Notes: generated from the letters alone by a model not told the origin. Shown: positions 39,098 to 57,287, numbered from the stretch's first letter. The stretch is 64,000 bases of DNA from a virus (IMGVR_UViG_3300037478_000520:1-64000); one strand, 5' to 3'. Numbers and translations: made by a program.

Positions 39098-39141
39098 TAT
39101 CCCCGCCCGCCGTTAGAATGGAGCAGGAGGCAAAGCTTGCA

Positions 39142-40719: not shown

Positions 40720-40791
40720 CCGATCAGAATGCGTATGCTTGAGCGGTCATGCAAGCGGGGATCGCTCGGCAATTCAAACTGACCCACTACC

Positions 40792-41142: not shown

Positions 41143-41547
41143 ATGGTGTGCTGGGAACACGGCCGCCAAGGAACCGGCTACCTCAAGCACAGGCTCGCAA
41201 GCGCCATGTGGCCGATCCCGTGGGACGTGTACTTGCTGAAGTTCCCGCCAGGCTCGCACATTCCAAGGCATCGGGATCTGTCCGTGCTTGGCCGTCACTA
41301 CCGCCTGAACGTGACACTGTGGAATGCGCACCCAAAGCACCCGTTCCAGTCCACAGGCTGGCTGTGGCGGGGATTTGGGCGCCGCGTGGTACTGTTCCGG
41401 CCGGACATTCACGCGCACGCTGTGCGGCGGATTGAGATCGGGACGCGGTACGTGTTGAGCTTTGGGTGGTTGTGCCGTGATCGTGATGGCCGCCAGCCCA
41501 TGGGGTCAGGAAGTTCTGAAGTTGCAGAAGGCTCTCGGCGCCTTTGA
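41143..41547 (+). CDS. small 2OG-Fe(II) oxygenase-like protein
   Basis: YLLKFP.GS.I..HRD (HxD), RLN, FRPD..AHAV, R.VLS. Confidence 0.7.
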   Translation: MVCWEHGRQGTGYLKHRLASAMWPIPWDVYLLKFPPGSHIPRHRDLSVLGRHYRLNVTLWNAHPKHPFQSTGWLWRGFGRRVVLFRPDIHAHAVRRIEIGTRYVLSFGWLCRDRDGRQPMGSGSSEVAEGSRRL

Positions 41548-41556
41548 AGCCGAGAT
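41521..41556 (+). repeat. solitary CRISPR repeat unit
   Basis: GTTGCAGAAGGCTCTCGGCGCCTTTGAAGCCGAGAT; 32/36 identical to the array-2 repeat. Confidence 0.85.
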
Positions 41557-41934: not shown

Positions 41935-41970
41935 AAAAAAACCCCCTGACCGCGCAAGGCGACCAGGGGG
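41935..41970 (-). terminator. terminator closing the CRISPR array 1 transcript
   Basis: Minus strand CCCCCTGGTCGC...GCGGTCAGGGGG followed by T7. Confidence 0.85.
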
Positions 41971-42017
41971 ATCAGAGATTCTTCAATGTCGTTCTGCTAG
42001 TTGGCAGGCTTGCCCGC

Positions 42018-42560
42018 CAAAGGCGCCGAGGGCCTTGTGCGACGTGCCGTGCTCGCAGTGCCAGAGCTTCCTTGCACCCTTGTCTCAGCTTCAAAGGCGC
42101 TGAGGGCCTTGTGCGACGGTCAGGGAAGTAGTGCGAGAGGTGCGCGTAGCCAAGTCTCAGCTTCAAAGGCGCTGAGGGCCTTGTGCGACGGCCGCCTCGT
42201 CCAGCACGTCCTTGTTCGGAGTTCGGTCTCAGCTTCAAAGGCGCTGAGGGCCTTGTGCGACCGCGAGGAGGCCGCCTGTCGAAGCGCCACAGATGAGGTG
42301 TCTCAGCTTCAAAGGCGCTGAGGGCCTTGTGCGACTCAACCGCCCTGCGGCGAGGGCCGCAAGTACCACCCTCATGTCTCAGCTTCAAAGGCGCTGAGGG
42401 CCTTGTGCGACTCGGCGATCACCTCGGCCATCACGTACCGTCGGTGCTCGCGTCTCAGCTTCAAAGGCGCTGAGGGCCTTGTGCGACTACCCGAGTCCGG
42501 CGCGCGCCACCGCGCTCGCCCCACGTCTCAGCTTCAAAGGCGCTGAGGGCCTTGTGCGAC
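42018..42560 (-). CRISPR. CRISPR array 1: 7 full repeats + 1 partial trailer repeat, 7 spacers of 36-40 nt
   Basis: 36-bp GTCGCACAAGGCCCTCAGCGCCTTTGAAGCTGAGAC (minus strand). Confidence 0.97.
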
Positions 42561-42727
42561 CGCTTCGTCAGATTGTCAAAGATCCCAAGCGCTTGCAAGC
42601 CGGTTTGCGAGAGCCTGTCGCTACGCGCTACAGGACGTCTACCACGGAAGCTGCTTTGGGCTGACGACCATCGGATTTCGCTAATATCCCCGCATTCTTA
42701 GCCAGTTTGCGAGCGGTCCCCGGGGTT
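42561..42727 (-). promoter_or_regulatory. CRISPR leader 1
   Basis: Near-identical inverted copy of 56498-56663. Confidence 0.85.
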
Positions 42728-42806
42728 GGCGCGCCGCCGGACCTCTCGCGAATTTTAGCGTAGTTAATCTGCATTGGTCCAGCGCCCGATTCGTCAGAGT
42801 TACTCG

Positions 42807-43259
42807 TCAACGGTTGATTTCAGCCGGTTCAGCGTCCGCGACCTCTTGGATGGCTTCGATCCCTGCGAATGGGTCTTCTTGCACGCCAGCGGCGTCCGCC
42901 TTCTCGCGCACCTGCTCGATCGACCTCGCCATCTGCTTGCGACGCTGCGGATTTCGCCTGACCTGCTCAGCTTGTGCCGAGAGCAACACGTTGAGTTTAC
43001 CGTTCACGACCGCGTCTCTCACCGCGGCGTCCTTATCGATCTTGGCGATGGCCGCGGTCTGGTCATCGTTCACTTGAGTATTCCGCGCAACCTCTACCAC
43101 GATCGATGATGGGGCTGCTCGGCTGACAGCCTTCTCGACATCGCTCGTTGTCGCGAGATCAACAAGAAAGGTAGCGGCACCAGAGCCCGCAGCCACCACG
43201 CCAACGGCGATTGAGAGTGCCTTCGCGATCCCACCACCGGTGGTCAGGTTGAAGTCCAT
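42807..43259 (-). CDS. membrane/coiled-coil protein (possible lysis accessory)
   Basis: N-terminal TM; last gene of the late operon. Confidence 0.55.
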   Translation of the reverse strand: MDFNLTTGGGIAKALSIAVGVVAAGSGAATFLVDLATTSDVEKAVSRAAPSSIVVEVARNTQVNDDQTAAIAKIDKDAAVRDAVVNGKLNVLLSAQAEQVRRNPQRRKQMARSIEQVREKADAAGVQEDPFAGIEAIQEVADAEPAEINR

Positions 43260-43279
43260 ACGCGCCTCCTATCCATTTT

Positions 43280-43600
43280 TCAAATTGAAGGTTCAATCGT
43301 GACCGAGATCCGTTGCGACTTCGATGTCGAGCCGTTGGAGTGCTGCACGGTGAACTGCGCCAGGTAGCGGCCGGAGACCAACACGTCAGCGGGCAATCGC
43401 GTGTACTCGATCACGCCTCCGGGAAGAATGTCCGCGGATGCGTCGTCGACCACAACTCGCCCCGTGTCTCGGTGCACGAGCCGAAACGTAGCGCTAATCG
43501 CATCTTCCAGAACGAGGTTGTGCTCTGTGGCATTGACGGACCACTGCCCGTGCGTCTCGCCAGTCTGGACCTTTTTGAAACTACTCTCGGTTGCTGGCAT
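43280..43600 (-). CDS. BppU-like beta-sandwich virion protein
   Basis: ATFRL...GVIEY...D....GRY.AQFTV. Confidence 0.55.
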   Translation of the reverse strand: MPATESSFKKVQTGETHGQWSVNATEHNLVLEDAISATFRLVHRDTGRVVVDDASADILPGGVIEYTRLPADVLVSGRYLAQFTVQHSNGSTSKSQRISVTIEPSI

Positions 43601-43609
43601 GGCTCACAC

Positions 43610-45850
43610 CTATCCGTTCACAGAGAATTTCACGCCGCGGTCACCGTGTCGACTCGACGGCTTCACCACGAGCGGCATGGGGATCACGCTGGTGTTGACC
43701 ACGAGTGCTGGTGAGACCACCTTTTGGGGCGCCTTGGTGAGTGTGGGGCCGAATACCTGCGACGTGCTCTCGACCAGGTCCGGCGGTCCAACCAGCGGAG
43801 CGACGTCGGGTTCAAAGACAACGCTCGAACTCGGCGTGAGTGCGGGCGCCACTTCCGCTGGCGCCACCTTGGCGATGGTCGGCGCAAACACCTGCGACGT
43901 GCTCGACACGGCGTTCGGTAGGACGCTCGGTGCGACCGCCTTCGCAACCGTAGCCCCGAATACCGTCGAGCCACTGGGTACCAGGTTGGGTGCCGCCACA
44001 GGCACGGGGATAGCCGTCACATAGGGCGGCAACACCACCGCGAAATTGCCCACGAGGCTGGGCGATACCGTCTTTGGAGTCGCCTTGGAGACCGTCGGAG
44101 CGTAAACGGTGCTGGTACTGGCCACGATGTCCGGGAACATCTGGATGAGCTGCCCAACATCCGGCTCGAACACCTGCGATGTGCTCGGCACGAGTCCAGG
44201 TTCGACGGCCGGGACGGCTGCCTTGGCGACGGCGGGCGACGCAACGGTCGATGTGCTCGGCGTAAGTCCAGGCTGGACGCTTGCGGGGGTCGCCTTCGCG
44301 ATGGTCGGCGCAAACACTTGCGACGTGCTCGACACGGCGTCTGGCTCGACGCTGGCTGGCGTCGCGAGTGCCACGGTGGGTGCAAACACCTGGGATGAAC
44401 TGGAGACCGCATCGGGGACAACGCTCGCAGGGGTCGCCTTGGCGACGGTCGGGGCGAACACCGTGGACGAACTCGGAACCAGGTCAGGGGCCACGTCCCC
44501 GTCGTCGATTGCCACGGTGGGCCCGAAGACTTGCGACGTGCTCGCAACAACGTCCGGTTCGACGATGGCCGGCGTGGCTTTTGCTACCGTCGGACCGAAG
44601 ACCTGCGCAGTGCTCGCGACAAGGTCGGGTGGGCCGACTTCCTTGGGGGTCGCCTTGGCTACCGTCGGAGCGAAGACCTGCGCGGTGGATGCGACCAGGT
44701 CCGGTTGCACCTGCGGAACAGTTGCCTTGGCTACCGTCGGGCCGAAGACGGTCGCAGTGCTCGCCACCGCGTCGGGCTGCACTGATTGTGGCGTTGCTTT
44801 TGCCACGGTCGGTTGAAAGACCGTGGATGAACTCGGGACGATGTCTGGCTGCGCCGTCAGATCAGACAGCGCGACCGTCGGGCCGAAGACCGAAGAAGTG
44901 CTCGCAACCAGGTCCGGCTGCACCGATGCGGGAGTCGCCTTGGCAACCGTCGGGCTGAAGACCTGGGATGAACTCGCTACCGCATTCGGCTGCACTGACG
45001 CCGGCGTCGCCTTGGCGACGGTCGGCCCAAAGACTTGCGCAGTCGAAGCCACAGCGTTCGGCTGCACACTTGCTGGCGTGGCCTTCGCGACCGTCGGCCC
45101 GAAGACAGAGGATGTGCTCGCGATAAGATCAGGAGGACCGACCTCGATGTCGCCGCCTGGCGTGATGTACTTGGCCTCGAGGTACGCGCTGTTCGTGGCG
45201 ACGTCTGTGTCATCATGGACGACGTCGTAAAAGATCGCCGCGCACGCTCTGAAGTGCTGAAAGCTGCCGTTGAGCGAACGCCCGAACCGCGCGGTGTCCA
45301 TCGACGTTGCGCCAGTGAAGACGTCTGACGCCGTCACGACGTTGACCTCAACGCCGTTCTTGTAGAACGTCATCGCGTTGCCGACGTCGACAAGCGTTAC
45401 AGCCCAGACAGCCCACTCCACGAAGTCACCAGCCGTGGCAGCGTAGATTGCTCCAGAAATGTTGATCTCAAGCCGATCCGGAGCGTCCTGCGCCATGATC
45501 AACGGGAACGCTTGGTCTGCCTGGTTGCGGCCGTAGTTGAAGCCGACCTCGTCGGCGCCGTCATCGTAGTAGTATCCGACCTGATAGATGGTCCGATCTG
45601 AGTCTTGGTTGGGCAGGCCAGTCGGGCTAGCTTTCTCCAGCGACTCGTCGGTGCCGTTGAAGTCGACGTAATCGGCTCCGCTCGGCGTTCCACCAGCAAC
45701 TAACTCGCCACCGATGTCAGAACCGATAGGCGTGAAGTCGTTGCCCTGACCGCTTGAATCGGCCCACTCCGTGACTTCGGTCCCATCGAGCGAGATGCCG
45801 GTGTCGGACTCGAGATCAATCCGTCGGTTGGCCGTGATCGGCGTCGTCAC
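43610..45850 (-). CDS. tail fibre-like protein: LamG-like head plus ~20-aa tandem repeats
   Basis: VTEWADSSGQGN LamG-type start; roughly two dozen VxPDxVASTSxVFxPTVAKATP repeats. Confidence 0.75.
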   Translation of the reverse strand: MTTPITANRRIDLESDTGISLDGTEVTEWADSSGQGNDFTPIGSDIGGELVAGGTPSGADYVDFNGTDESLEKASPTGLPNQDSDRTIYQVGYYYDDGADEVGFNYGRNQADQAFPLIMAQDAPDRLEINISGAIYAATAGDFVEWAVWAVTLVDVGNAMTFYKNGVEVNVVTASDVFTGATSMDTARFGRSLNGSFQHFRACAAIFYDVVHDDTDVATNSAYLEAKYITPGGDIEVGPPDLIASTSSVFGPTVAKATPASVQPNAVASTAQVFGPTVAKATPASVQPNAVASSSQVFSPTVAKATPASVQPDLVASTSSVFGPTVALSDLTAQPDIVPSSSTVFQPTVAKATPQSVQPDAVASTATVFGPTVAKATVPQVQPDLVASTAQVFAPTVAKATPKEVGPPDLVASTAQVFGPTVAKATPAIVEPDVVASTSQVFGPTVAIDDGDVAPDLVPSSSTVFAPTVAKATPASVVPDAVSSSSQVFAPTVALATPASVEPDAVSSTSQVFAPTIAKATPASVQPGLTPSTSTVASPAVAKAAVPAVEPGLVPSTSQVFEPDVGQLIQMFPDIVASTSTVYAPTVSKATPKTVSPSLVGNFAVVLPPYVTAIPVPVAAPNLVPSGSTVFGATVAKAVAPSVLPNAVSSTSQVFAPTIAKVAPAEVAPALTPSSSVVFEPDVAPLVGPPDLVESTSQVFGPTLTKAPQKVVSPALVVNTSVIPMPLVVKPSSRHGDRGVKFSVNG

Positions 45851-46563
45851 GTGCGGCCTCGACTCGCGGCGGCGCGCAACCGGTCGCGCTCAGCGCGAAG
45901 GGCGTTGGTCTCCGCACGCTGCCTGGCGATCTCCTCTGGAGGCGGATCTCGCTGCAACCGCTCCTGCTCTTCGACCTCCGACATCTTGCTGTCGAATCGC
46001 CCAGCGATCGAAGCGCGAACAACCACGTCGCCAGCCGTGACAAGGAACTGCTGCGGGCGAGCGAGGGGAACGCCGTTGCTATCCACGCGGCCGTCGGGCG
46101 CAAGCCGCAAGTATCCAAGCAGCGCGCGCGCGCGGTGTGCCGCCTGCGCGCCGGCTACCTCCCCCTTCTCTCGGAGATTGGTGAGCGCCTCGGCCTTGGC
46201 GATGTCCGGATCAGCGCAGACAGCAATCGGTCGCCCGGCCCAGCGCTCGAAGTTGGCCACGTTTCCGCGACGTGGATTTCGCGCAATCCGCACGATAGCC
46301 CCGTCCCCAGCATCAACCGGAAACGCTTCCAGTCCTCGAGCCTCGACGGTGTTCCACCACCACGCTCGACGATCCTCGTTGAACGTGATCGGCCCACCGA
46401 GCGTCGGCAACGGCTCTCCGAGTGCCACCCAACGCGGCCAACGTGCCGCAGCAAGAGCCGCCCACTCCGCGTGCTTATCCGCGTAGTGCTGGCACCATGC
46501 CGCAGCGCGAAGGCGCGACAGCATGATCGCGTCTGGCACCTCGATGTAGCGGTACTCGGGCAT
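45847..46563 (-). CDS. hypothetical late protein
   Basis: Coupled to the downstream gene. Confidence 0.55.
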   Translation of the reverse strand: MPEYRYIEVPDAIMLSRLRAAAWCQHYADKHAEWAALAAARWPRWVALGEPLPTLGGPITFNEDRRAWWWNTVEARGLEAFPVDAGDGAIVRIARNPRRGNVANFERWAGRPIAVCADPDIAKAEALTNLREKGEVAGAQAAHRARALLGYLRLAPDGRVDSNGVPLARPQQFLVTAGDVVVRASIAGRFDSKMSEVEEQERLQRDPPPEEIARQRAETNALRAERDRLRAAASRGRT

Positions 46564-46649
46564 GGGGTGCGCCTCACATAGAAAAAAATCGCGCCCAACG
46601 CAGACGCCGATATACGATCGGTATCTGCGCCAGGCGCGTGGATGAGAAC

Positions 46650-47075
46650 TTAGAGTTGCCCGATTCCGGAGCCGTTCCAGGTGATGTTGACGTTGCCACC
46701 GTCAGGTGGTTGCGTCATACCGGTTCCGGTATCGATCCACATGATCAACGTCGAAGTGCCAGCCGTGCCCGTCCACTTGTAGATCAAACAGGCTTCGAAC
46801 TCGTCGCCAGTAACCGACGTGATCGTTGTATCTGCCGCGTCAAAGACAGCCGTGTCGCTGATCGTCTTGGAAGCCAGCGCAACGCCATCGCTGCCAGCAT
46901 TGCCGCCGCCAGCCCCAACCATGGCGCCAGCAGCGATATCGGCGATGTCCTGGTCCGCGGCGTTGTACGTCTCATCGCCGGTATCGATGAAGATGACGCG
47001 GATGTCGTCTGCCAATAGGTCGATGTTGCCGCGCGCAACCTCGGCTTTCCCGAATGGGTACCACGCATTTGCCAT
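46650..47075 (-). CDS. minor tail/virion protein
   Basis: MANAWY...IDL..D.I...FDAAD...YK.TG...P.GGN..I.WN..GI pattern. Confidence 0.65.
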   Translation of the reverse strand: MANAWYPFGKAEVARGNIDLLADDIRVIFIDTGDETYNAADQDIADIAAGAMVGAGGGNAGSDGVALASKTISDTAVFDAADTTITSVTGDEFEACLIYKWTGTAGTSTLIMWIDTGTGMTQPPDGGNVNITWNGSGIGQL

Positions 47076-47107
47076 TGCTGAGTTCTCCTAATGCAGGCGG
47101 TGCGCGG

Positions 47108-47308
47108 TCAGCGCTTCCCGCGAAAAAGGCTGAAGCGCGAAAGGAATCCGAGGATTGCCGAGGTGATCGGCTTCACGACCTCGTCGTCGCGCTTGGTTGG
47201 AGTTGCGTCGACGAATGCGTCAACCACAGTGCAGATAGCAACCAGGAGCGTCACCACCGCGGAGACGTACGTCACCCAGTCGATCTCAAGGATCGATTCG
47301 ATACTCAT
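47108..47308 (-). CDS. holin-like protein
   Basis: 66 aa, TM helix, TPTKRDD, basic C-terminus; next to the endolysin. Confidence 0.65.
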   Translation of the reverse strand: MSIESILEIDWVTYVSAVVTLLVAICTVVDAFVDATPTKRDDEVVKPITSAILGFLSRFSLFRGKR

Positions 47309-47342
47309 TGCTGAACCTCTGAGTTAGCGCCGAGCTTTTAGG

Positions 47343-48185
47343 TCAGCGCGTGGTCTCATTCTTCGGCGCGCGAACGTCCACTGTTCCGCGTTCCCAGTTG
47401 TCCCGCTGCTCGTGCAAAGGAAACCAGTTCACGTACCCCGTGATCGTTTCTCGTGAACGCTTGCTAGCGCGAAATGCATTTCCGTAGTTTCCCTCAAGCC
47501 CGTTCACGTGCGTGTCATCGACGCGCACCACCGTGAACTTGTGACCCTTCTGAGTGAGATCCCCGGTCGGGTCGCGATACAGAATGACCGCTTGGTCTCC
47601 AGGAGTCGGTGACAACGTCAATTGGCCTAAGTCACGCGCCGCGAGGTACGACTGGTAGCAGCTCCCCATCTTTTGACCTTTGGGGTGCTTCGCGCTGACG
47701 TGTGGGTAGCAACCCGTCGCGTTGTAGGCGATTTGGTCAGCGCAGAATGCGCACCACGGCGGGCCCTTCTTCGCGGCCATCGCGCCTGTGGTGCGCCACT
47801 TCGGAAGGCACGTATCGATCAGCGGCCCGCGGTTGCTGCCGATCGGCACCTCGCGGACGTCGGCATCGAGCCACCGCATGGCTTCTTTGAGAACCGCGCG
47901 CCGCATCGGCGTCAATCCAGATGGAATCGTGATCCCGTGGGTCGTGTGCTCCTCGACATGCGGGTCTCGCTTCAGCGACCACCACGTCTTGGGTCCGACG
48001 ACGCCGTCCACTTCAAGAGGCAGCCCATCCGGGCCGCTGTGGGTCTGCTGGAACTCTACGACAGCGTCTCGCAGGTCGATGTCAAACTCGTCAGAGTCGC
48101 GTGCGTCGCACATGCCGAACTCGCGGAGGAACCCGCGCACGTAGCGAACCTCGGTTGCCTTGTCTTGGTAACGAAGCGTCAGCAT
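47343..48185 (-). CDS. endolysin (PG-binding + CHAP)
   Basis: AVVEFQ...L.VDGVVGPKTW; PWCA, GH, EGN CHAP motifs. Confidence 0.88.
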   Translation of the reverse strand: MLTLRYQDKATEVRYVRGFLREFGMCDARDSDEFDIDLRDAVVEFQQTHSGPDGLPLEVDGVVGPKTWWSLKRDPHVEEHTTHGITIPSGLTPMRRAVLKEAMRWLDADVREVPIGSNRGPLIDTCLPKWRTTGAMAAKKGPPWCAFCADQIAYNATGCYPHVSAKHPKGQKMGSCYQSYLAARDLGQLTLSPTPGDQAVILYRDPTGDLTQKGHKFTVVRVDDTHVNGLEGNYGNAFRASKRSRETITGYVNWFPLHEQRDNWERGTVDVRAPKNETTR

Positions 48186-48204
48186 GTTCGTGGTGGTCAG
48201 GCGG

Positions 48205-49116: not shown

Positions 49117-51767
49117 GACGATGTGCTATTTGTGATGAGACCCAGATTCGTCAGCGCCGCCAGCAGACTGACTAGCGCCGCGCCACTCGTCCGTGACCCC
49201 GTGACCCCGGGCCGTCCGATCGGTGTATTGCCGAAGAACCCTAGGTCACCGTCAAGCGTGTCGACCACGTTGTCCAGCGTATGACCGATGATCGCCTGCC
49301 CGTAGTCGCTGGTACCGATGCCGCCACGGAAGTACGCGCTTCCACCGTCCGACCCGGTTCCTGTGGCGGACTGCGCCTGCACGATCAAATCCGTTCCGAC
49401 GGTCGACGTAGCCGCCGTGTCTTGAATCTGAATCGTTGCCGCGCCTGCAAAGTTGAGGCCGGTTGCGATGCCTCCCTGACGCCATGCGCTGGCGTTGTAA
49501 CCCTCGACCTCACTCGTCGTGGTGTTGTAGATCATCATCCCAGCTTCGGGGGTGAGCGTGTCGCGCTGGCCCGTGTTGAGACGATTGAGAAGCAGCGCTC
49601 CATTCGTCGTGTCCAGCCTAAGTGAGGCCGAACCCGTGACCGCTCCGGACCCGCCAAGACGTAGCCGGATGCCGTCAACGTCGGCGAACAGGTCAGAGAA
49701 CACGACCGCGTTGCCCGCCTCGTTGACGACAGGGTACTTGCCCGCTGCGCTCGTGTAGTTCGCAGGCGTGTCTGTCAGCGCGATAAATGTGGTCGACCCA
49801 CCTCCATCGTCGACCGCCGCCCAAGTGGAACCGTTGTAGACCTCGAGCTGCGCTGTCGTCGTGTTCCAAACGATGTCGCCATCCTCGGCCGGCAGCGCGT
49901 TTCGCTCCGTCGTGTCCAGACGGCTAGCGAACGTGACGTGGAACTCCAGACCGGTTTCCGCGTTGTTGATGCGCGGAACGGCGCGGGCGAACGCAGTGCC
50001 AGCGGACGTGTACGAAGATGGCGTGTCGGTCAGGCTAAGAAACGTGGTCGAACCAACCCCGATCTGAAACCACGCAGACCCGTCGTAGGCGTCGATGGTA
50101 TTGGTCGTCTCGTTGTAGACGACCAGACCCTCTCGCGGGCTGCTGATCGCGTCGCGCTCGGCGGTCGTGACGGTCGGGAAACCGATCCCTAGGTTGACGC
50201 TCTGGAAGTCGATTGCCGCGCTAGCGTGTGGGGTCGTGCCACCGAGGGAGATTTGCGCGACGTTCCTGATGTCGAACGCGTTGAAATCGAGGTTCGCGTC
50301 AATCTCGGGCTGAATCGGCCGGATGATCAGCGCGTCGGAGCCAAGGCTGACCAGTGCATCGGTGTTCACCGCAAACATGTTGTTCGCGTACTTCGAACCG
50401 CTGTTGACGAAGAACTGCCGTCCAGGCGGGAACTGGTAGTTAAATTGGAATCCAGGAGCTCGCGACCAAGCACCCGAAGAAGCGGTGTAGACACCGTTCT
50501 CGCTCGGTGCGGATTGGTTGGCTACGAGCACCGGGTATCCCTCTGACAGGATCACACCGTCGACATCCGCCAGCCCGCTCAGCCCATGGTCGGATACCGT
50601 CGCCGCCTGAACGAAGGCGAGCCTGTCCAGCTCGTTGAGCATAGGGACGATGGCAATTGCTGTAGCGCCAACCGTGATGGCCGTGTCATTGACGACGCTA
50701 AACAGCTTGTCACCGTAGGTAGCGCCCTCGTTGACGTAGATCATCAGGCCGCCGAAGATTCCGGCCCCAGTGTCATACGGAACCGTGCGCGTCCAAGCGC
50801 CCGCAGTGTCGACCGTGTAGATGCCGTTCTGGGAAGGGGTGGTCTGCGCCCAACACAGGAACGTGTCACCGGTAACCAGGGTCACCGTATCGGAAACCGC
50901 TGGTCCCGTGAGAGGAGCATTACCGGTCGCTGCAGCACGCACGATTGCGTAGCCGGACGAAGTCGCGCTTGTCGACGTGATCGCCACCCAGCTCGACCCA
51001 TCCCAGTATTCAAACTGGTTGGTCGTCTCGTTCCAGATGAGCAGTCCTGTCGCCGGAGATCCGATTGCGTCTCGCTCGGCGGTCGTCAGCGACGGGATTA
51101 GAATTCCGCTATTGTTGACCTGGGAGAAGTCGATGATCGCGCTCGCGTCACCCGACGTTCCGGAGATGATCGACCCGCCATTCAGAATCAGGTCGCCGCC
51201 GTTTAGGTTCAGGTCGCCATCGATGAGCGGCTGCAGCGGCCCGATGTTGATCGACGTCGTGCCGATGAGTACGGCGTTGTCGTTGCGAACCGAGAAGAGC
51301 GTGTCGCCGAAGCTCGCGCCGGCTTTCACGTAGATCAACTGACCGGGGAAAATCTCCGGGTCGGCATCGTAGGCAGCCGCGCGCGTCCACGCTCCGCTTG
51401 TGTTGACCTCGTAGATGCCATTCTCAGTGCCAGCCGATTGCATCCACGCGAGCACAAGGTCGCCGTTGATCAGCGCCGTACCGTCGATCGTCCCGCCGCC
51501 CGTCAGTGCATGGTTGCCCGTGGTGGCCAGTCGCACAACCGCTGCGCCCCACCCGCTACCGCCGTCTCCGCCGCCCACTCCACCACCGCCGCCGCCACCA
51601 ACCGCGCCCGACATGTCGACGACGTAGCGACGGTTCGGCGAGTCGGCGGAGCCAACCGCACCGGGCGCAACGATGTTCAGGATCTTATAGGTCCCGTCGA
51701 TCGTGAGTCCGTTGACCTGGATCTCGTCGATGCCGATGTGAATCCAGGACGGTGGTGTTCGTGGCAT
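49113..51767 (-). CDS. long tail fibre
   Basis: Three VRxAT...Q...ENGIY...WTR modules alternating with TTAERDAI.SP..GL..YN.TT modules. Confidence 0.8.
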   Translation of the reverse strand: MPRTPPSWIHIGIDEIQVNGLTIDGTYKILNIVAPGAVGSADSPNRRYVVDMSGAVGGGGGGGVGGGDGGSGWGAAVVRLATTGNHALTGGGTIDGTALINGDLVLAWMQSAGTENGIYEVNTSGAWTRAAAYDADPEIFPGQLIYVKAGASFGDTLFSVRNDNAVLIGTTSINIGPLQPLIDGDLNLNGGDLILNGGSIISGTSGDASAIIDFSQVNNSGILIPSLTTAERDAIGSPATGLLIWNETTNQFEYWDGSSWVAITSTSATSSGYAIVRAAATGNAPLTGPAVSDTVTLVTGDTFLCWAQTTPSQNGIYTVDTAGAWTRTVPYDTGAGIFGGLMIYVNEGATYGDKLFSVVNDTAITVGATAIAIVPMLNELDRLAFVQAATVSDHGLSGLADVDGVILSEGYPVLVANQSAPSENGVYTASSGAWSRAPGFQFNYQFPPGRQFFVNSGSKYANNMFAVNTDALVSLGSDALIIRPIQPEIDANLDFNAFDIRNVAQISLGGTTPHASAAIDFQSVNLGIGFPTVTTAERDAISSPREGLVVYNETTNTIDAYDGSAWFQIGVGSTTFLSLTDTPSSYTSAGTAFARAVPRINNAETGLEFHVTFASRLDTTERNALPAEDGDIVWNTTTAQLEVYNGSTWAAVDDGGGSTTFIALTDTPANYTSAAGKYPVVNEAGNAVVFSDLFADVDGIRLRLGGSGAVTGSASLRLDTTNGALLLNRLNTGQRDTLTPEAGMMIYNTTTSEVEGYNASAWRQGGIATGLNFAGAATIQIQDTAATSTVGTDLIVQAQSATGTGSDGGSAYFRGGIGTSDYGQAIIGHTLDNVVDTLDGDLGFFGNTPIGRPGVTGSRTSGAALVSLLAALTNLGLITNSTSS

Positions 51768-51944
51768 TTGGTTACATTCGCTCCCGAGGCGCGGTCGTGT
51801 GGTCTAGAAGGATGGGGCTTCCATGAGGGAACTTGCACGCGTAGGCACGCATACCGTCACGGTCGAACGACGGCGCGCGTTCCAGAGGAGAACCGCAAAG
51901 CCGGCATCGGACGACTATCGACTTTCCAGCGAACTCGATTTCCA

Positions 51945-52838
51945 TCAGTCTGCCGCAGCGTCCTGCAGGCCGAGCACGATGACTGTGAAATTCATCTTAT
52001 CGATGGGATATCCCAACTGCTTGATCTTGCCACCGTCATTCAAGTCAGCGAACGGGTACAAGCAGTAGAGTGAGAATTCCTGGTTGGTGCGCGAAAACCC
52101 GGTGCTTTCGAAATTGTGGAACGGTCGCACCTCAGCGAATCGGGCTGCACCGGTGTTAGGGTCGGTCGAAAGCAGCCAACTAGATGTCACAAACACGCCG
52201 TAGTTGACGGTAGGAAATCCATCTGTCATGCGAACACGCATGTAAGGTCCGCTCGAGACAATCGATTCGATGTTGAACCCATCGATGATTGTGTTGTCGT
52301 AGATGTGCGCCCACGCCTTGATTGTGTTGCGTGCGGTGATCGTGTTTACGAAGCCAGTTGAGTGGTGAGGATTTACTTGCGACGACGCACCCGTGTGCTG
52401 GGCGAACCGGATGTGCCCGCGAGACAAGAGTGCCTTACCGCCGCTCATGCCTTGCGCCTCGATCGCATGGCCGTTCAGCGACTGCGCAAATACTCCGACC
52501 GCTTCACCGTTTTCGGCAAGGCCTGTCACGGCCTTGTGGAATCTCGTATCTCCAGTGCTCGTTCCAACCAGACCAAAAGGAGCCGTCCCGAGCACCCCGA
52601 TCCCAGTTGCCTCGTTTGAAATGCCATGGATGGCGTTGCCCGTGTTGCCGTTGTCGGCGACCTCCAAGGCACGAGTCGAGAAGTTCTTGGTAGGGAGCAC
52701 CGTCTGAACGATCGCCTTCATTCGATCGGCAAGCCGCTTCCCGAACTCCACGCTAGCCGCGGTGACTTCCTCGCCAGGGTTGGGTACCTGGATTGTCTCA
52801 GTCGATGTGGCGCCGTCCGGCGTGTAGGTCGTTGGCAT
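51945..52838 (-). CDS. tail fibre/baseplate-associated protein
   Basis: Gly-rich beta repeats; TIKAWA C-terminal domain. Confidence 0.6.
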   Translation of the reverse strand: MPTTYTPDGATSTETIQVPNPGEEVTAASVEFGKRLADRMKAIVQTVLPTKNFSTRALEVADNGNTGNAIHGISNEATGIGVLGTAPFGLVGTSTGDTRFHKAVTGLAENGEAVGVFAQSLNGHAIEAQGMSGGKALLSRGHIRFAQHTGASSQVNPHHSTGFVNTITARNTIKAWAHIYDNTIIDGFNIESIVSSGPYMRVRMTDGFPTVNYGVFVTSSWLLSTDPNTGAARFAEVRPFHNFESTGFSRTNQEFSLYCLYPFADLNDGGKIKQLGYPIDKMNFTVIVLGLQDAAAD

Positions 52839-52844
52839 GCGTTG

Positions 52845-53528
52845 CTACCCGTTCCAGTACACAGCGGCTCCGCTGCGTTGTGTTGGATCTCCCCATGTCC
52901 CGTCAGGCTGCTCGACGGCCCACGTTCCAGGATCCGTGACCACAATGATGTGTGAGCACCACGTATGCGCAGGCTTCCACTGCCGGATGATTTGCCGGAT
53001 GTCCGCTAAGTGCGTTGTGTTTGCCCCGAGCCCATCCCAAGGGTGCCCGTCGTCGTAAAGGCTTCCATCGTCGTACTCGATGCCCGCCTCGTGCGTGAAC
53101 GGGTGACCGGTGAGTACGACCCAAAAGCGCGCCCACGCGCCGGTGTTTCCGTCCCAATCCCAGTCATCGTTTTCAACGACCTCGGCCGTGTAGCCGAGCA
53201 AGGCTAGCTGCGAAACGATCGCGTGTGGCGTGCCTGCAAACAACCATGCAGTCCACGCGTCGCCAAGACGAGCCCGATATTGCTGAGCCGTCTCGGACGG
53301 GACCTTGCCCATCTTACGTTCGGTGCCGATCAGCTTCAGAACGCTCGGGAGGCCGCTCGGATTGCGGAATGCCCGCGCGCGAATAGCAAGCGTGTCGCCT
53401 TCTAGCCCCAAGTGATTCAAGAACGGGCAGATCGTTCCGAAGTACCGGTCTGCGTTGGGTCCAGAATAGCAACTCGGCATGACTTCGAGTTGGTAGTCGA
53501 AGTACGCGGTCTCCGGAGTCTTAGTCAT
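52845..53528 (-). CDS. baseplate wedge protein (P2 gpI-like)
   Basis: IGTER...E....YRARL...W...GT; WKPAHT; follows baseplate J. Confidence 0.75.
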   Translation of the reverse strand: MTKTPETAYFDYQLEVMPSCYSGPNADRYFGTICPFLNHLGLEGDTLAIRARAFRNPSGLPSVLKLIGTERKMGKVPSETAQQYRARLGDAWTAWLFAGTPHAIVSQLALLGYTAEVVENDDWDWDGNTGAWARFWVVLTGHPFTHEAGIEYDDGSLYDDGHPWDGLGANTTHLADIRQIIRQWKPAHTWCSHIIVVTDPGTWAVEQPDGTWGDPTQRSGAAVYWNG

Positions 53529-53536
53529 CGCTATGA

Positions 53537-54745
53537 TTAGACCGGCACAACGTCAGCGATGGTGATCTGCGGTATCGCGACGAAGCCTTTTGGAATCGAC
53601 TGGTTTACGGCCGGCGAAAAAGTCAGGTTGACGACCCCAGGAACAGCCGCAGCGGATCGGTAAACCTGTCCAATAAGTAGAAACCCTCCGAAGTCCAGCG
53701 GGTCGACCTTGGTGCCGCCGATCGGCACGAGCGCGAAGTAGTCCTCAATTGCTTCAGTTACCGCGACGGCGATGCCGTCCTGATAGGCAGCCTCACAAAT
53801 GATGACCACTGAGATGGCGATCGGAATGTCAGTTGCGGATTGGATGGTAACCGTCGAGCCGATTGGAACGCGGCGTACGATTCCGAGTCCCGCATTGCCA
53901 TTGACGTAGTCGTTGACATCCGTGACGGATGCCGCGTCAGCACCACCTGTGACGGTAGCCAAGTACACACCGACGTTTCCTGTCCCAGTCGCGTCCTGGT
54001 CGTCGACTTGAACGCGGGTAACCGCTTCGGCGGCGAGAAGCGCCCAGTAGATGTAGGCGTCTCGTGGACCTGTGGCGAATGCGAGCGTTGCCCACTTGCT
54101 CGTGTTGCGAACTTTGAGCTTTAGATCCGACTCCTCGTTGGCGCCCTCGATAGTCAGCCATGATTCGACCGGAGTTAGCGGAGGATTTGGGAAGTTGGTT
54201 AGCGTGACTCCGCTGATCGGAGTCTGGAGTTCCAGCGTGGAAGTCGCGCTCGTAGCCAGTTGCGTGCCGACGTTGCCATCCGCTCCAGCCACTTCCGCTT
54301 TCAACAGGAACTGGTACGCGACCAACGGGTCTACGATCGTCCCAGCGCTGTCGATGCGGTAGGTTAGTCCCGTGTTCCGGTCGACGACCACTTGCTCGCC
54401 AGCAACGATATCAATCGGCAGCGATGCGTCCGACCCGGCGGTGAGTTGAACGTATCCCTCCGTCCGCACCGCCTGCAGTCGTTGGTTGTCGTAGTGGCTG
54501 TCCGAGAATACGGTCAGCCAGTCACCCTCTGCAGTTTGGTTGTAGCCACCGCGCGCAATCAGCGCAGTAACCCGCGTGCGGTCTGCGAAGAACGCCGCGC
54601 ACGCGAACGCGATGTCGCGTGCTGCCGTGCCATCGCCCCACGCCGTTATGTCGATCTCATGTTTTCGGAGTTGCTCGATGAGAAACTCCTCCGCCTCATC
54701 GAGAGAGAGAATCTCGGAGAGTTGCTCAATCGTTGGTGACGCCAC
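53537..54745 (-). CDS. baseplate J/gp47-family protein
   Basis: TAEGDWL, AEVAGADGN, GANEESD..L..R, G...AY..WA. Confidence 0.9.
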   Translation of the reverse strand: MASPTIEQLSEILSLDEAEEFLIEQLRKHEIDITAWGDGTAARDIAFACAAFFADRTRVTALIARGGYNQTAEGDWLTVFSDSHYDNQRLQAVRTEGYVQLTAGSDASLPIDIVAGEQVVVDRNTGLTYRIDSAGTIVDPLVAYQFLLKAEVAGADGNVGTQLATSATSTLELQTPISGVTLTNFPNPPLTPVESWLTIEGANEESDLKLKVRNTSKWATLAFATGPRDAYIYWALLAAEAVTRVQVDDQDATGTGNVGVYLATVTGGADAASVTDVNDYVNGNAGLGIVRRVPIGSTVTIQSATDIPIAISVVIICEAAYQDGIAVAVTEAIEDYFALVPIGGTKVDPLDFGGFLLIGQVYRSAAAVPGVVNLTFSPAVNQSIPKGFVAIPQITIADVVPV

Positions 54746-54746
54746 G

Positions 54747-55148
54747 TCAATTGACCTCTCGGAGCAGCTCGACCGTCAGGTCAGGAAACTCGACCACAGC
54801 CTCAAACGGCCCATCTCGGTCGGTCAGACGAAGATGAATCTGGATGTGATTCGGGTCGTTGCTGTGCGTCGTCACCGTCACGGATGCATTGAGGACCCGC
54901 TCATCCTGCTCGGCCTGCTCAGTGCACTTGGCGTTGATGTAGGATCCCGTGACACCGCTCGCGCTGAGCTGCGCTTTCAGGTCAAACCCGCGAGCAGGCG
55001 ACCTCGGCCAGTGCCCGCGCGCGTAGGTGAAACGTCGAGCGATGTCGATCGCCAGTGCGCGACGCCCCGAGCACGTCGAAATGGTCGCGCTGAAGTCAAG
55101 CCCCGGGCCGAAGCCGTCGAATGTGCTTCCAAGTCCAAGGTTTGCCAT
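54747..55148 (-). CDS. gp25/gpW-like baseplate protein
   Basis: AEQDERV..ASV; size and position. Confidence 0.65.
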   Translation of the reverse strand: MANLGLGSTFDGFGPGLDFSATISTCSGRRALAIDIARRFTYARGHWPRSPARGFDLKAQLSASGVTGSYINAKCTEQAEQDERVLNASVTVTTHSNDPNHIQIHLRLTDRDGPFEAVVEFPDLTVELLREVN

Positions 55149-55222
55149 GTTTTCCCAAACGGTTCCGCTGAGTTAGGGGTATCCGGTTGTTCGCCGTTCG
55201 CTGACGACGTACGCTTTTCGCT

Positions 55223-56284
55223 ATGCGCACGACCATCTTCCTATTTGCGCTCGTCGCGGCATGCGCCGCGGAGCAAGCCCCCACCACGCCCTCTGAGCCC
55301 GTCCAGCGCGACGCCGTGACGCTCGGTACCGGCGGTGGCGCGCGGGCAGTGCGGGGCGACGTGGGGCTTTCTCTGGCCGCGTTTGGCGACGATGGCGCCG
55401 ACGATCCGAGTGGCCAGGGTCCGAATGGCCCAGGCGGCGCGGTCGACCCTTCGGAGTCGACTCCGGACCCTCCTGAGCAGCTGGCCGGCACGGACATGCC
55501 GGTTGCCGGAGGCGGGGCGCCGGAGCCGGTGGATTCGACAAGCGACGTTGCGAGCCCAATCCCGAGCGGTGAGTTGGCCAACTTGCTGATCGTGTTTGAT
55601 CGCTCCCAAAGCATGGGGGAGCGGTGGAGTGGTGAGCCGCGCTGGCAAGCGGCCGGCCTCGCCGTTGCCCGTGCCATGAGCGCGTTGCAGCCCGACCACC
55701 TCGGCGCCATCACGACAGGCGCTGTGCTTTTGCCAACGCCGGACCCGAACGCTACGCCGACATGCGTCGAGCCCTCCGGGGTTACCTGCGTCTTCGTTCC
55801 AGGCGAACCGGCTGACGCGGACAACTGCATGGTAGCGCCCGGGGCGACCTCGCACATTGCACTCACGTCGGGCTACGATTTCTTGGACGCGTTCACCGTT
55901 GGGCCAGATGGAGCGCCGTTCTACTTCCCGATTCAGAGCGGCTCCACGCCTCTGAGGGAGGGACTGCTAGAAGCTCAGCGCGCGCTCGGCGACGCGACTC
56001 TTGTGGGGCAAACCGCCGTGGTCGTGATCACAGACGGCGAACCGGACTGCGGATGGGACGCTAGCGTCGCCACCAGCGTGGTGGCCGAATGGCGCGAGCA
56101 AGGCATCATCACCTACGTGATTGGGCTGCCCGGCCCAGACGGGGCGTTCGCCGGTGGTGCTGGCGGGGCATCGGCACTGAATGCCATTGCCGTGGCGGGC
56201 GGAAGCGTGTCGATGATCACGCCGGGCAGCGCTCCGGGCATGCAAGCTAAGTTGCTGTCGATCTTGCGTGGCGAGGCGCTGTGA
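55223..56284 (+). CDS. VWA-domain lipoprotein (moron)
   Basis: Lipobox LVAAC; MIDAS DRSQSM, TP, ITDGEP; opposite strand to the tail operon. Confidence 0.85.
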   Translation: MRTTIFLFALVAACAAEQAPTTPSEPVQRDAVTLGTGGGARAVRGDVGLSLAAFGDDGADDPSGQGPNGPGGAVDPSESTPDPPEQLAGTDMPVAGGGAPEPVDSTSDVASPIPSGELANLLIVFDRSQSMGERWSGEPRWQAAGLAVARAMSALQPDHLGAITTGAVLLPTPDPNATPTCVEPSGVTCVFVPGEPADADNCMVAPGATSHIALTSGYDFLDAFTVGPDGAPFYFPIQSGSTPLREGLLEAQRALGDATLVGQTAVVVITDGEPDCGWDASVATSVVAEWREQGIITYVIGLPGPDGAFAGGAGGASALNAIAVAGGSVSMITPGSAPGMQAKLLSILRGEAL

Positions 56285-56347
56285 AACCCTGCAAAGAGTC
56301 TGAAAAGCCAATCGGTCAAACCGCGATGGACTGTCCGCATTGCGGGG

Positions 56348-56428
56348 CTAACCCCGCATCCCATCCAGCACCGCGCACAGCATCGCAATCGCGACGATCA
56401 GCGTTGCGAGATCGATAGCGTCGATCAT
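56348..56428 (-). CDS. 26-aa hydrophobic peptide
   Basis: MIDAIDLATLIVAIAMLCAVLDGMRG; hairpin over the stop codon. Confidence 0.3.
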   Translation of the reverse strand: MIDAIDLATLIVAIAMLCAVLDGMRG

Positions 56429-56497
56429 TGTTCTGGCCTGTCTGCCACCCCCGGATGTGGGCGACGTCTGATTCGCGAGAGGTCCGGTGGCGCGAAA

Positions 56498-56663
56498 ACC
56501 CCGGGGACCGCTCGCAAACTGGCTAAGAATGCGGGGATATTAGCGAAATCCGATGGTCGTCAGCCCAAAGCAGCTTCCGTGGTAAACGTCCTGTAGCGCG
56601 TAGCGACAGGCACTCGCAAACCGACTTGCAAGCGCGTGGGATCTTTGACAATCTAGCGGACCT
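56498..56663 (+). promoter_or_regulatory. CRISPR leader 2
   Basis: Near-identical to leader 1. Confidence 0.85.
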
Positions 56664-57287
56664 GTCGCACAAGGCCCTCGGCGCCTTTGAAGCCGAGACT
56701 CCTGTGCTCCGGGCGGGGCGACCATTGCGAGGCAGTGTCGCACAAGGCCCTCGGCGCCTTTGAAGCCGAGACTTGTGCTCGAGGGCGCGCAAGGCATCGG
56801 AAAGTCTACCGCGGTCGCACAAGGCCCTCGGCGCCTTTGAAGCCGAGACGTGGGGGCGAGCGCGGTGGCGCGCGCCGGACTCGGGTAGTCGCACAAGGCC
56901 CTCGGCGCCTTTGAAGCCGAGACCGGCTGCAGGACGTGCTGGATTGGCTTGCGAGCCGGGGGGTCGCACAAGGCCCTCGGCGCCTTTGAAGCCGAGACGT
57001 GATCAGCCGCGTAGACCGCCAGCAGCGTCCACGCGGTCGCACAAGGCCCTCGGCGCCTTTGAAGCCGAGACTCTTGTTCTTGCATCTCTCCAAGAATCGC
57101 CCTATGGGGGTCGCACAAGGCCCTCGGCGCCTTTGAAGCCGAGACCCCAATCCCAGGTCGGAGACGGAACTCGCGCAGTCGTCGCACAAGGCCCTCGGCG
57201 CCTTTGAAGCCGAGACCGTAGGTCTGTGAGCACGTGGTGCAAGCCGATGGAGTATCACAAGGCCCTCGGCGCCTTTGAAGCCGAGAA
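56664..57287 (+). CRISPR. CRISPR array 2: 9 repeats (last degenerate), 8 spacers of 35-41 nt
   Basis: 36-bp GTCGCACAAGGCCCTCGGCGCCTTTGAAGCCGAGAC. Confidence 0.97.

What the first reader, a model, noticed from the sequence alone, without database searches (positions are those of the whole stretch)
42018..57287. Two cas-less phage CRISPR arrays with twin inverted leaders bracketing the lysis/tail block
Seen: array 1 (minus strand, own terminator at 41935-41970) and array 2 (plus strand) point outward from near-identical ~165-bp leaders 14 kb apart. No cas gene is in the window. Known: phage-borne mini-arrays can borrow host Cas effectors against competing elements. Inference: the full leaders suggest both arrays still acquire spacers through host Cas1-Cas2. 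The inverted leader+repeat pair could also invert the 14-kb block by recombination.
Basis: partly seen in the sequence, partly recalled or inferred. Interest (0 to 1): 0.8.

Follow-up and report, generated by a model that had tools for sequence, protein, structure and literature searches.

The report
Phage Cas12m system's two satellite arrays
The two CRISPR arrays are real but not Cas-less: the same 114-kb phage carries its own small, probably non-cutting Cas12m protein and a third array 36 kb further on, so it appears to run a private three-array DNA-silencing system whose targets are still unknown.

Summary
Observation confirmed. Array 1 lies at 42010-42560 on the minus strand and array 2 at 56664-57287 on the plus strand. 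They face outward from inverted 193-nt leaders that are 181/193 identical, and they flank a baseplate, tail-fibre and lysis block.

The "cas-less, host-Cas-borrowing" reading fails by its own refutation test. The window is the first 64 kb of a 113.7-kb virus record. At contig 91483-93588 sits a 701-aa Cas12m (type V-M/V-U1) relative, directly followed by a third array with the same repeat and the same promoter-proximal leader block.

The leaders of arrays 1 and 2 each contain the last 41 codons of a cas12m copy. The arrays are therefore duplicated cas12m-leader-array modules that now work in trans. The record has no cas1, cas2 or cas4.

The canonical RuvC glutamate is replaced (D375-N558-D653). 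Non-cutting silencing, as in studied Cas12m proteins, is therefore the likely mode.

Spacer sets differ between strains, and two spacers in different arrays overlap on one unknown target. This points to real acquisition, presumably by host machinery.

No targets were found except one 36/37 self-match that lacks a T- or C-rich flank. Inversion could not be tested.

This scan has already noted phage Cas12m systems with dispersed repeats in at least 13 other genomes.

The parts
42010..42560 (-). CRISPR array 1 (satellite). It has 7 identical 36-nt repeats plus a degenerate terminal repeat at 42010-42045, and 7 spacers. Compared with arrays 2 and 3, its repeat carries a compensatory G>A / C>U change in the hairpin stem.
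42561..42627 (-). Promoter-proximal leader block of array 1. It is conserved in all three arrays and found nowhere else in the genome.
42628..42753 (-). Relic of a cas12m 3' end: the last 41 codons plus the stop, with the frame still open. It forms the distal part of leader 1.
41942..41970 (-). Intrinsic terminator closing array 1 (12-bp stem plus T run).
41521..41556 (+). Solitary, slightly degenerate repeat unit with an intact hairpin. It lies at the 3' end of gene 41143-41547 and is antisense to array 1. Its role is unknown.
   Evidence: (D3)
56471..56596 (+). Relic of a cas12m 3' end (41 codons plus stop). It aligns gap-free to Cas12m residues 661-701 and forms the distal part of leader 2.
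56597..56663 (+). Promoter-proximal leader block of array 2, shared with arrays 1 and 3.
56664..57287 (+). CRISPR array 2 (satellite). It has 8 identical repeats plus a variant terminal repeat, and 8 spacers. Spacer 1 (56700-56736) matches the phage's own contig at 80551-80587 in 36/37 positions. Two partner features lie OUTSIDE the window on the same contig (window = contig 1-64000), so they cannot be listed as parts. One is cas12m, a 701-aa type V-M-like effector (P0001), at contig 91483-93588 on the plus strand (= L010:7483-9588). The other is array 3, with 13 repeats and 12 spacers, at contig 93657-94575 on the plus strand (= L010:9657-10575).
   Evidence: for the outside parts
42807..55148 (-). 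Late-gene block between the arrays: baseplate J and wedge, tail fibre, minor tail, and a PG-binding endolysin-like gene. It is collinear with the upstream tail, capsid and terminase genes.

Best explanation
Arrays 1 and 2 are trans-acting satellite arrays of a CRISPR system that the phage itself encodes. That system is a single-effector type V-M-like locus, cas12m plus array 3, lying 36 kb beyond array 2 on the same 113.7-kb genome. The phage is myovirus-like and probably temperate.

Origin of the satellites (shown from sequence): each arose by duplication of the cas12m-3'end / leader / array junction.

Proposed mechanism (inferred from the family):
1. Each array is transcribed from the conserved leader block.
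2. Cas12m cuts the transcript into crRNAs, each with a 5' repeat-hairpin handle and a 3' guide.
3. The complex binds PAM-flanked double-stranded DNA and blocks transcription or replication without cutting.

The canonical RuvC glutamate is replaced by asparagine in this protein.

Most likely use (inferred): silencing competing phages, plasmids or other DNA in the host cell, including superinfection exclusion from the prophage state. New spacers are probably installed by host adaptation proteins, because the phage has none.
For: Same repeat: five repeats of array 3 are identical to the array 2 repeat.

Same leader: a 54-nt query from leader 2 matches only the leaders of arrays 1 and 3 (42-45 nt aligned, 93-95% identical) and nothing else significant in the genome.

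Effector identity:
- PDB sequence hit to Cas12m 23vw, E 2.4e-36.
- With the family profile, the top 5 PDB hits are all Cas12m (1.8e-89 to 3e-30). TnpB and designed TnpB-like nucleases follow at about 1e-11 and Cas12f only from about 5e-5.
- PADLOC Cas12u1, E 5.8e-58.
- AlphaFold model with pLDDT 78. The four best Foldseek hits are Cas12m structures, E 7e-25 to 3e-20, and the next hit is at 1e-9.

Satellite origin: the leader relics translate to 41 residues that align gap-free to Cas12m 661-701 (51% identity, E 2e-8). The family profile also finds the relic in leader 2.

Signs of function in the satellites:
- Repeats are identical within each array.
- Array 1 carries a fixed compensatory pair change that keeps the hairpin.
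- All 6 hairpin pairs covary across 21 repeats from related loci: 93.7% of cells paired, and 0/500 shuffles reach the observed score.
- Array 1 has its own terminator.
- The degenerate repeats are leader-distal.

Family context: nearly all of about 30 related effector loci have a 36-nt-repeat array immediately downstream.

No adaptation genes are present.

Dynamic arrays: a 4.1-kb metagenome contig with a 100%-identical effector carries a different spacer series. Array 1 spacer 2 and array 3 spacer 5 overlap by 21 nt, with one mismatch and a 16-nt offset.

Non-cutting mode: D375 / N558 / D653, and the second position varies in the subfamily (N, S, R or E). All Cas12m proteins tested so far bind DNA but do not cut it, whatever their triad (PMC11013384, PMC10442227).

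Temperate lifestyle: a tyrosine integrase is present.
Against: There are no expression or crRNA data.

No external protospacer was found for any of the 25 distinct spacers. The searches covered GenBank phages, PLSDB plasmids, IMG/VR exact-word scans (two spacers only) and, for array 1 only, 401 Myxococcota genomes. Target class and PAM are therefore unknown.

The consensus promoter scan called no sigma-70 promoter inside leaders 2 and 3.

The D-N-D triad has not been studied, so loss of cleavage is an extrapolation.

The effector is about 100 residues longer than characterised Cas12m proteins and only about 30% identical to them.

The record is only 82% complete, so a cas1-cas2 module in the missing part cannot be excluded.
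Confidence: 0.78

Rival explanations
1. One reading: the arrays are cas-less phage mini-arrays. Their crRNAs are loaded onto a host Cas effector, and host Cas1-Cas2 extends them.
For: There is no cas gene within the 64-kb window and no cas1, cas2 or cas4 anywhere in the record. The arrays change between strains. Phage mini-arrays that use host Cas proteins are documented (review PMC11656645).
Against: A cognate effector with the same repeat and leader lies on the same genome. The leaders are relics of that effector gene. This repeat architecture travels with Cas12m-like genes in about 20 other viral or metagenomic loci. The arrays have 7-8 spacers, not the 1-2 typical of mini-arrays.
Confidence: 0.06
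2. The arrays are inert leftovers of two duplications of the cas12m-array junction. They are no longer transcribed or used.
For: The cas12m fragments in the leaders are truncated relics. No targets were found. No consensus promoter was called in leader 2.
Against: Repeats are perfectly homogeneous within each array. The double substitution in array 1 preserves the hairpin. The promoter-proximal block matches array 3 at 93-95% over the 42-45 nt that align, whereas the relic coding part has diverged. A dedicated terminator is present. Spacer sets are almost entirely unique to each array.
Confidence: 0.08
3. The main role is gene regulation rather than defence. The phage would use non-cutting Cas12m with hard-wired guides to repress its own or host genes. 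One candidate is spacer 1 of array 2, acting on the phage gene at contig 80208-80735.
For: There is a 36/37 self-match inside a plus-strand early-region ORF. A non-cutting effector tolerates self-targets. Relatives carry many solitary repeats just upstream of gene starts. Spacer GC (65.9%) exceeds phage GC (61.8%), which hints at non-kin, possibly host, targets.
Against: Only 1 of 27 spacers matches the phage. Its 5' flank (CAA) is neither T- nor C-rich, unlike the PAMs known for Cas12m (PMC11013384). A kin-derived spacer that is harmless to self explains this equally well. Spacer turnover between strains fits immunity better than fixed regulation.
Confidence: 0.15
4. The inverted leader-plus-repeat pair acts as a recombination switch that flips the 14-kb baseplate and tail-fibre block, in a Mu G / P1 C-like host-range inversion.
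For: Inverted repeats of 193 nt at 94% identity, plus 36-nt repeat units, bracket the tail-fibre genes. Near-identical spacers in different arrays show that the arrays exchange sequence (I3, 22, 38).
Against: No serine invertase is present. No second, oppositely oriented set of fibre genes was seen. The present orientation continues the minus-strand late operon. Inversion would not create the duplicated spacers that were observed. Only one orientation is on record.
Confidence: 0.04

Closest known systems
Type V-M (V-U1) CRISPR-Cas12m: MmCas12m2, GoCas12m, MsCas12m (PMC10442227, PMC11013384; PDB 8hhl, 8pm4, 23vw)
   Same: Both have a single compact TnpB-derived effector next to an array of 36-nt repeats with a 3' hairpin. 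Both lack adaptation genes and have a non-canonical RuvC site. The best sequence and fold matches are Cas12m.
   Different: This effector is 701 aa rather than about 600 and only about 30% identical. Its triad is D-N-D rather than D-E-D, H-D-D or N-D-D. It is carried by a large phage rather than a plasmid or chromosome. It has three dispersed arrays, two of them headed by cas12m 3' relics.
MvCas12m of myxophage MV-1 (bioRxiv 10.64898/2026.09.14.751636), reported as the first phage Cas12m; also V-M in 'some prophages' (PMC11656645)
   Same: Both are phage-encoded Cas12m systems with an adjacent array, no cas1, cas2 or cas4, and no identified protospacers.
   Different: MV-1 has a 610-aa effector with an intact D-E-D triad and one array of 8 spacers. 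Here there are three arrays with 27 spacers, satellite arrays inside the tail module, a substituted RuvC glutamate and one self-matching spacer.
CasPhi (Cas12j) and CasLambda (Cas12l) of huge phages
   Same: All are compact phage-encoded type V effectors with arrays, usually without adaptation genes. They are thought to target competing elements.
   Different: CasPhi and CasLambda are active nucleases of other Cas12 lineages. In the fold search CasLambda ranks far below Cas12m (ranks 20 and 39).
Plasmid type IV-A systems (PMC11656645)
   Same: Both are nuclease-free, MGE-borne CRISPR interference systems that act by transcriptional repression. Type IV-A acquires spacers through a host type I-E adaptation module.
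   Different: Type IV-A is a class 1 multi-subunit effector with DinG and is unrelated in sequence.
Viral cas-less mini-arrays and solitary repeat units / RNA anti-CRISPRs (PMC11656645)
   Same: Arrays 1 and 2 have no neighbouring cas gene. One solitary repeat is present at 41521-41556.
   Different: Here the repeats match the phage's own effector system, not a known host system. The arrays are long (7-8 spacers).

Membership tests
Type V-M CRISPR-Cas (Cas12m) | Effector is a sequence homologue of Cas12m and closer to it than to other Cas12 or TnpB proteins | tested here: met
   phmmer against PDB: 23vw Cas12m, E 2.4e-36. Profile against PDB: the top 5 hits are all Cas12m (1.8e-89 to 3.4e-30); the next hits are TnpB and a designed TnpB-like nuclease at about 1e-11, and Cas12f appears only from about 5e-5. 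PADLOC Cas12u1, E 5.8e-58.
Type V-M CRISPR-Cas (Cas12m) | Cas12m fold (WED, REC with coiled-coil insertion, RuvC, zinc-ribbon TNB) | tested here: met
   AF2 model with pLDDT 78.4. Foldseek top 4 are 8hhl, 8pm4, 8hio and 8hhm (E 7e-25 to 3e-20), and the next family is at 1e-9. TM is only 0.40-0.47, as expected for a multi-domain model. Pfam Cas12f1-like_TNB is weak.
Type V-M CRISPR-Cas (Cas12m) | CRISPR array next to the effector, with about 36-nt repeats carrying a conserved stem-loop next to the guide | tested here: met
   Array 3 starts 69 nt after the stop codon. The hairpin shows 6/6 covarying pairs across 21 related repeats. The pseudoknot stem is possible (5-6 bp here) but only weakly above shuffles.
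Type V-M CRISPR-Cas (Cas12m) | No tracrRNA (single crRNA guide) | tested here: inconclusive
   The repeat covariance model, run on both strands, finds no anti-sense repeat near cas12m or array 3. Partial anti-repeats were not searched for. The solitary repeat at 41521 is antisense only to array 1.
Type V-M CRISPR-Cas (Cas12m) | No adaptation module | tested here: met
   Cas1, Cas2 and Cas4 profiles give no hit in 113.7 kb, and the controls work. The record is 82% complete.
Type V-M CRISPR-Cas (Cas12m) | PAM-dependent dsDNA binding without cleavage | not testable with these tools
   Only sequence-level evidence is available: D375-N558-D653, with the canonical Glu replaced and variable in the subfamily.
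Cas-less viral mini-arrays that use host Cas | No cognate effector in the viral genome | tested here: not met
   cas12m lies at contig 91483-93588 with the same repeat and leader.
Cas-less viral mini-arrays that use host Cas | Repeat identical to a host CRISPR repeat | not testable with these tools
   The host is unknown. The repeat was not found elsewhere in IMG/VR.
Invertible tail-fibre segments (Mu G, P1 C) | Adjacent serine invertase (Gin/Cin) and both orientations present | tested here: not met
   There is no Resolvase-family hit in the record.

The most novel reading that the evidence does not exclude
The three arrays, the solitary repeat and the many solitary repeats in related phages may be parts of one phage-run Cas12m control network. 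In this reading, the non-cutting effector is programmed both by acquired spacers and by repeat units placed in the phage's own transcripts. It would then switch phage or host genes as well as silence rivals. Candidate targets are the self-matched early gene at 80.2-80.7 kb and a patatin-like host defence gene suggested by array 1 spacer 4.
Probability: 0.15. Interest if true: 0.85.

Novelty: new variant of a known kind. Interest (0 to 1): 0.55.

Why it matters
Cas12m is the natural "CRISPRi" effector and has been characterised from bacterial systems; reviews place type V-M mainly on plasmids. Only a 2026 preprint and a review remark place it in phages.

This phage adds four points:
- A viral Cas12m lineage can serve several dispersed arrays.
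- New arrays arise by copying the cas12m-leader-array junction, and the copy leaves a datable gene relic in the leader.
- The arrays keep changing although the phage has no adaptation genes.
- A non-cutting effector lets a phage carry a near-perfect self-match.

The effector family is large: 2,506 clusters at E<=1e-30. Its nearest clusters are mostly viral. Such systems may therefore be a common but overlooked tool of phage-phage and phage-host conflict, and a source of compact DNA-binding effectors.

Tried and rejected
Spacer targets. Arrays 1-3 were searched against GenBank phages and PLSDB plasmids with blastn (word size 11). Results were nothing, or chance hits at E 0.05-0.07. Exact-word scans of IMG/VR with the self-matching spacer, the spacer shared by arrays 2 and 3, and the repeat gave nothing. 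All spacers against about 60 fetched related loci gave only the strain contig L030. Array 1 against 401 Myxococcota genomes gave only 20-30-nt partial matches in 111 genomes, which is noise. Six-frame spacer peptides against all held DNA were uninformative.

Solitary-repeat guide. The guide that would follow the solitary repeat has no second match in the genome.

Host. The closest cultured phage terminases are 29% identical or less, so the host stays unknown.

Rfam. No family matches the region.

Close relatives in IMG/VR. A single-protein query found none. The alignment query found 15 distant loci.

Readings considered and dropped:
- CasPhi or CasLambda identity. The fold and sequence matches favour Cas12m by more than 15 orders of magnitude.
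- The solitary repeat as a tracrRNA. It is sense to arrays 2 and 3.
Full report
WHAT IS THERE

Array 1 is on the minus strand. It has seven identical 36-nt repeats (42082-42560) plus a degenerate terminal repeat (42010-42045), and seven spacers.

Array 2 is on the plus strand. It has eight identical repeats plus a variant terminal repeat (56664-57287), and eight spacers. Spacers are 35-41 nt long.

The arrays point outward from inverted leaders, 42561-42753 and 56471-56663, which are 181/193 identical. A 12-bp-stem terminator with a T run follows array 1.

In both arrays the degenerate repeat is at the end far from the leader. This fits the proposed direction of transcription.

The reference copy of the repeat is window:56664-56699. 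It folds into a 6-bp hairpin two bases before its 3' end. All seven array 1 repeats carry two substitutions that turn one G-C pair of that stem into A-U.

The genes between the arrays are all on the minus strand and continue the late operon:
- Baseplate_J
- a baseplate wedge subunit
- a tail fibre protein
- a minor tail protein built of 24-residue repeats
- a peptidoglycan-binding, endolysin-like protein

The rest of the late operon (tape measure, sheath, major head, large terminase) runs up to about 76.7 kb.

THE WINDOW IS NOT THE WHOLE GENOME

The window is bases 1-64000 of a 113,660-bp IMG/VR virus record, estimated 82% complete. The same repeat occurs 13 more times at contig 93657-94575. 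Five of those copies are identical to the array 2 repeat.

Sixty-nine bases upstream of this third array ends a 701-codon ORF at 91483-93588.

This protein is a Cas12m relative:
- phmmer against PDB sequences finds only Cas12m entries: 23vw at E 2.4e-36 and 8pm4 at E 7e-13.
- A profile of the protein and its eight closest homologues ranks five Cas12m entries first (1.8e-89 to 3.4e-30). TnpB and designed TnpB-like nucleases follow at about 1e-11, and Cas12f appears only from about 5e-5.
- The PADLOC model for Cas12u1, the older name of V-M, scores E 5.8e-58.
- An AlphaFold model (pLDDT 78) has the four Cas12m cryo-EM structures as its best Foldseek matches (E 7e-25 to 3e-20). Every other Cas12 type is at 1e-9 or worse.

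No Cas1, Cas2 or Cas4 is encoded in the record. There is only one cas12m.

THE LEADERS ARE COPIES OF THE cas12m END

I aligned the two leaders with the cas12m 3' end and the array 3 leader. Three segments appear:
- A 49-nt block that is nearly identical in all three. In array 3 this block is coding sequence of cas12m.
- About 100 nt that have diverged.
- A promoter-proximal stretch: the 54-nt query from leader 2 matches leaders 1 and 3 over 42-45 nt at 93-95% identity and has no other significant match in the genome.

In both satellite leaders the cas12m reading frame stays open for 41 codons and stops at the aligned position of the cas12m stop. The translated relic aligns without gaps to Cas12m residues 661-701 (51% identity, E 2e-8).

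The relic begins R-E-R, as in a 57%-identical homologue, whereas the phage's own gene has R-E-W. The family profile independently hits 56459-56563.

Arrays 1 and 2 are therefore duplicated cas12m-leader-array junctions. They may derive from a diverged allele, and the effector gene has been lost from them. This is shown directly by the sequence.

FAMILY CONTEXT

Only eight close homologues were found by word-based search. A full HMM search finds 2,506 cluster representatives at E<=1e-30. The nearest ESM Atlas clusters are 80-91% viral.

I fetched fifteen IMG/VR loci, twelve metagenome loci and three MAG loci that encode relatives. Nearly all have an array of 36-37-nt repeats immediately downstream of the gene.

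Across 21 such repeats, all six hairpin pairs change on both sides while staying paired. 93.7% of cells are paired, 0/500 shuffles reach the observed score, and slid controls give 27-49%. A second, pseudoknot-forming stem is possible here (5-6 bp) but is only weakly above shuffles across the family.

LIKELY MODE OF ACTION

The RuvC motifs read D375, N558 and D653. The canonical glutamate is N in most of the subfamily, and S, R or E in others.

Published work shows that Cas12m proteins with D-E-D, H-D-D or N-D-D triads all bind PAM-flanked DNA tightly without cutting it. They process their own pre-crRNA, need no tracrRNA, and silence plasmids and phages by blocking transcription or replication (PMC10442227, PMC11013384).

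I infer the same for this D-N-D protein. This step is extrapolation, not observation.

The phage has a tyrosine integrase at 22966-24183. The system could therefore act from a prophage as well as during infection.

ARE THE ARRAYS ALIVE?

Evidence that they are:
- Within-array repeat identity, the compensatory stem change, the conserved leader block and the terminator argue against decay.
- A 4.1-kb metagenome contig (L030) encodes a 100%-identical effector but a different spacer series. Its first spacer is the one found as spacer 1 of array 1 and spacer 3 of array 2. Then come array 3 spacers 4 and 5, then three new ones.
- Array 2 spacer 6 equals array 3 spacer 6.
- Array 1 spacer 2 and array 3 spacer 5 overlap by 21 nt, with one mismatch and a 16-nt offset. 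That pattern is expected from two separate acquisitions from two alleles of one target.

So the arrays both recombine with each other and acquire spacers. The machinery is not on the record, so host Cas1-Cas2 is the obvious candidate. This is untested.

The overlap also gives the 5' flank of one protospacer, ...ATCG.

TARGETS

None of the 25 distinct spacers matches GenBank phages or PLSDB plasmids; of the further searches, the IMG/VR exact scans covered two spacers and the 401 Myxococcota genomes only array 1.

The one clear match is to the phage itself. Spacer 1 of array 2 equals contig 80551-80587 at 36/37 positions, inside a plus-strand early-region ORF, with 5' flank CAA.

CAA is neither T- nor C-rich, unlike known Cas12m PAMs. 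The simplest reading is a spacer taken from a close relative that is harmless to self. A regulatory role cannot be excluded, because a non-cutting effector tolerates self-targets.

Mean spacer GC (65.9%) is above phage GC (61.8%). This is a weak hint that many targets are not kin phages.

INVERSION

The inverted leaders and repeats could recombine. However, no invertase is present, the current orientation is collinear with the late operon, and only one orientation is on record.

COMPARISON AND NOVELTY

Type V-M is known to be enriched on plasmids and present in some prophages (PMC11656645). A September 2026 preprint reports a myxophage Cas12m with one array as the first phage case (10.64898/2026.09.14.751636).

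The system here belongs to that kind. It differs in several ways:
- It has three dispersed arrays.
- Two satellites carry cas12m relics and lie inverted inside the tail module.
- It has a substituted RuvC glutamate and a longer effector.
- It has a self-matching spacer.

Earlier notes of this scan, on overlapping windows of this genome and on at least 13 other phage genomes, describe the same effector family and its dispersed repeats. I reproduced the key points independently.

SEEN IN PASSING

One solitary repeat lies at 41521-41556 (plus strand, 28.8 bits).

A 176-kb relative (the record behind L017) has about 18 solitary copies of its own repeat. All are on the effector's strand. Eight of the 18 lie within 60 nt upstream of a gene start, against about 12% for random positions.

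Noticed in passing
window 41521-41556 (+): A solitary, slightly degenerate copy of the CRISPR repeat with an intact hairpin. It sits at the 3' end of gene 41143-41547 (phrog_13746) and is antisense to array 1. The 40 nt that would form its guide have no second match in the genome.
   Followed up: partly
record behind L017 (G002, 175,906 bp; loci L062-L070); also G003, G007, G001, L024:58-93: Distant phage relatives with Cas12m-like effectors carry many solitary copies of their own repeat. G002 has about 18, all on the effector's strand. 8/18 lie within 60 nt upstream of a gene start, against about 12% for random positions, and some lie just after terminator-like hairpins. Earlier scan notes describe the same in at least 13 genomes.
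   Followed up: partly
L058 and L059 (G004, both ends of a 110.7-kb viral contig): The contig has a regular repeat array at one end and a degenerate one at the other, in opposite orientation. This is another case of oppositely oriented arrays, or an assembly effect at the termini.
   Followed up: no
window 40785-41135 and 35838-35945 (+): RtcB RNA ligase is present only as C-terminal fragments (Pfam profile positions 292-426 and 345-384). No N-terminal part is in the record. An IS-like DDE transposase ORF (38169-39326, minus) and a P63C-domain ORF lie between the fragments, and tRNA-Pro is at 35588-35662.
   Followed up: partly
window 43610-45850 (-): A 746-aa minor tail protein (phrog_8501) built of many diverged 72-nt (24-residue) tandem repeats.
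   Followed up: no
window 55223-56284 (+): A plus-strand vWA-domain ORF inserted against the minus-strand late operon, directly upstream of leader 2. Together with array 2 it looks like one moron-type insertion. This ORF overlaps a minus-strand ORF (55096-55866), so the gene call is uncertain.
   Followed up: no
contig 80200-80740 (L009:16200-16740): The self-targeted ORF contains four copies of a 10-12-nt motif (read by eye). Its function is unknown, and the protein has no Pfam or PHROG match.
   Followed up: no
window 42262-42299 (array 1 spacer 4): In one crRNA-sense frame this spacer reads a 12-residue peptide that fits the patatin G-x-S-x-G nucleophile motif. No matching gene was found, so a host patatin-type target remains a guess.
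   Followed up: partly
L028:9453-11741 (Planctomycetota MAG): Degenerate, irregularly spaced (45-85 nt) copies of a similar repeat core lie on both sides of a distant Cas12m-like gene.
   Followed up: no
window 57312-59450 (-): A 712-aa protein next to array 2 with a GH5 cellulase domain (Pfam E 5e-11). It lies within the tail module and is a possible tail-associated glycan depolymerase.
   Followed up: no
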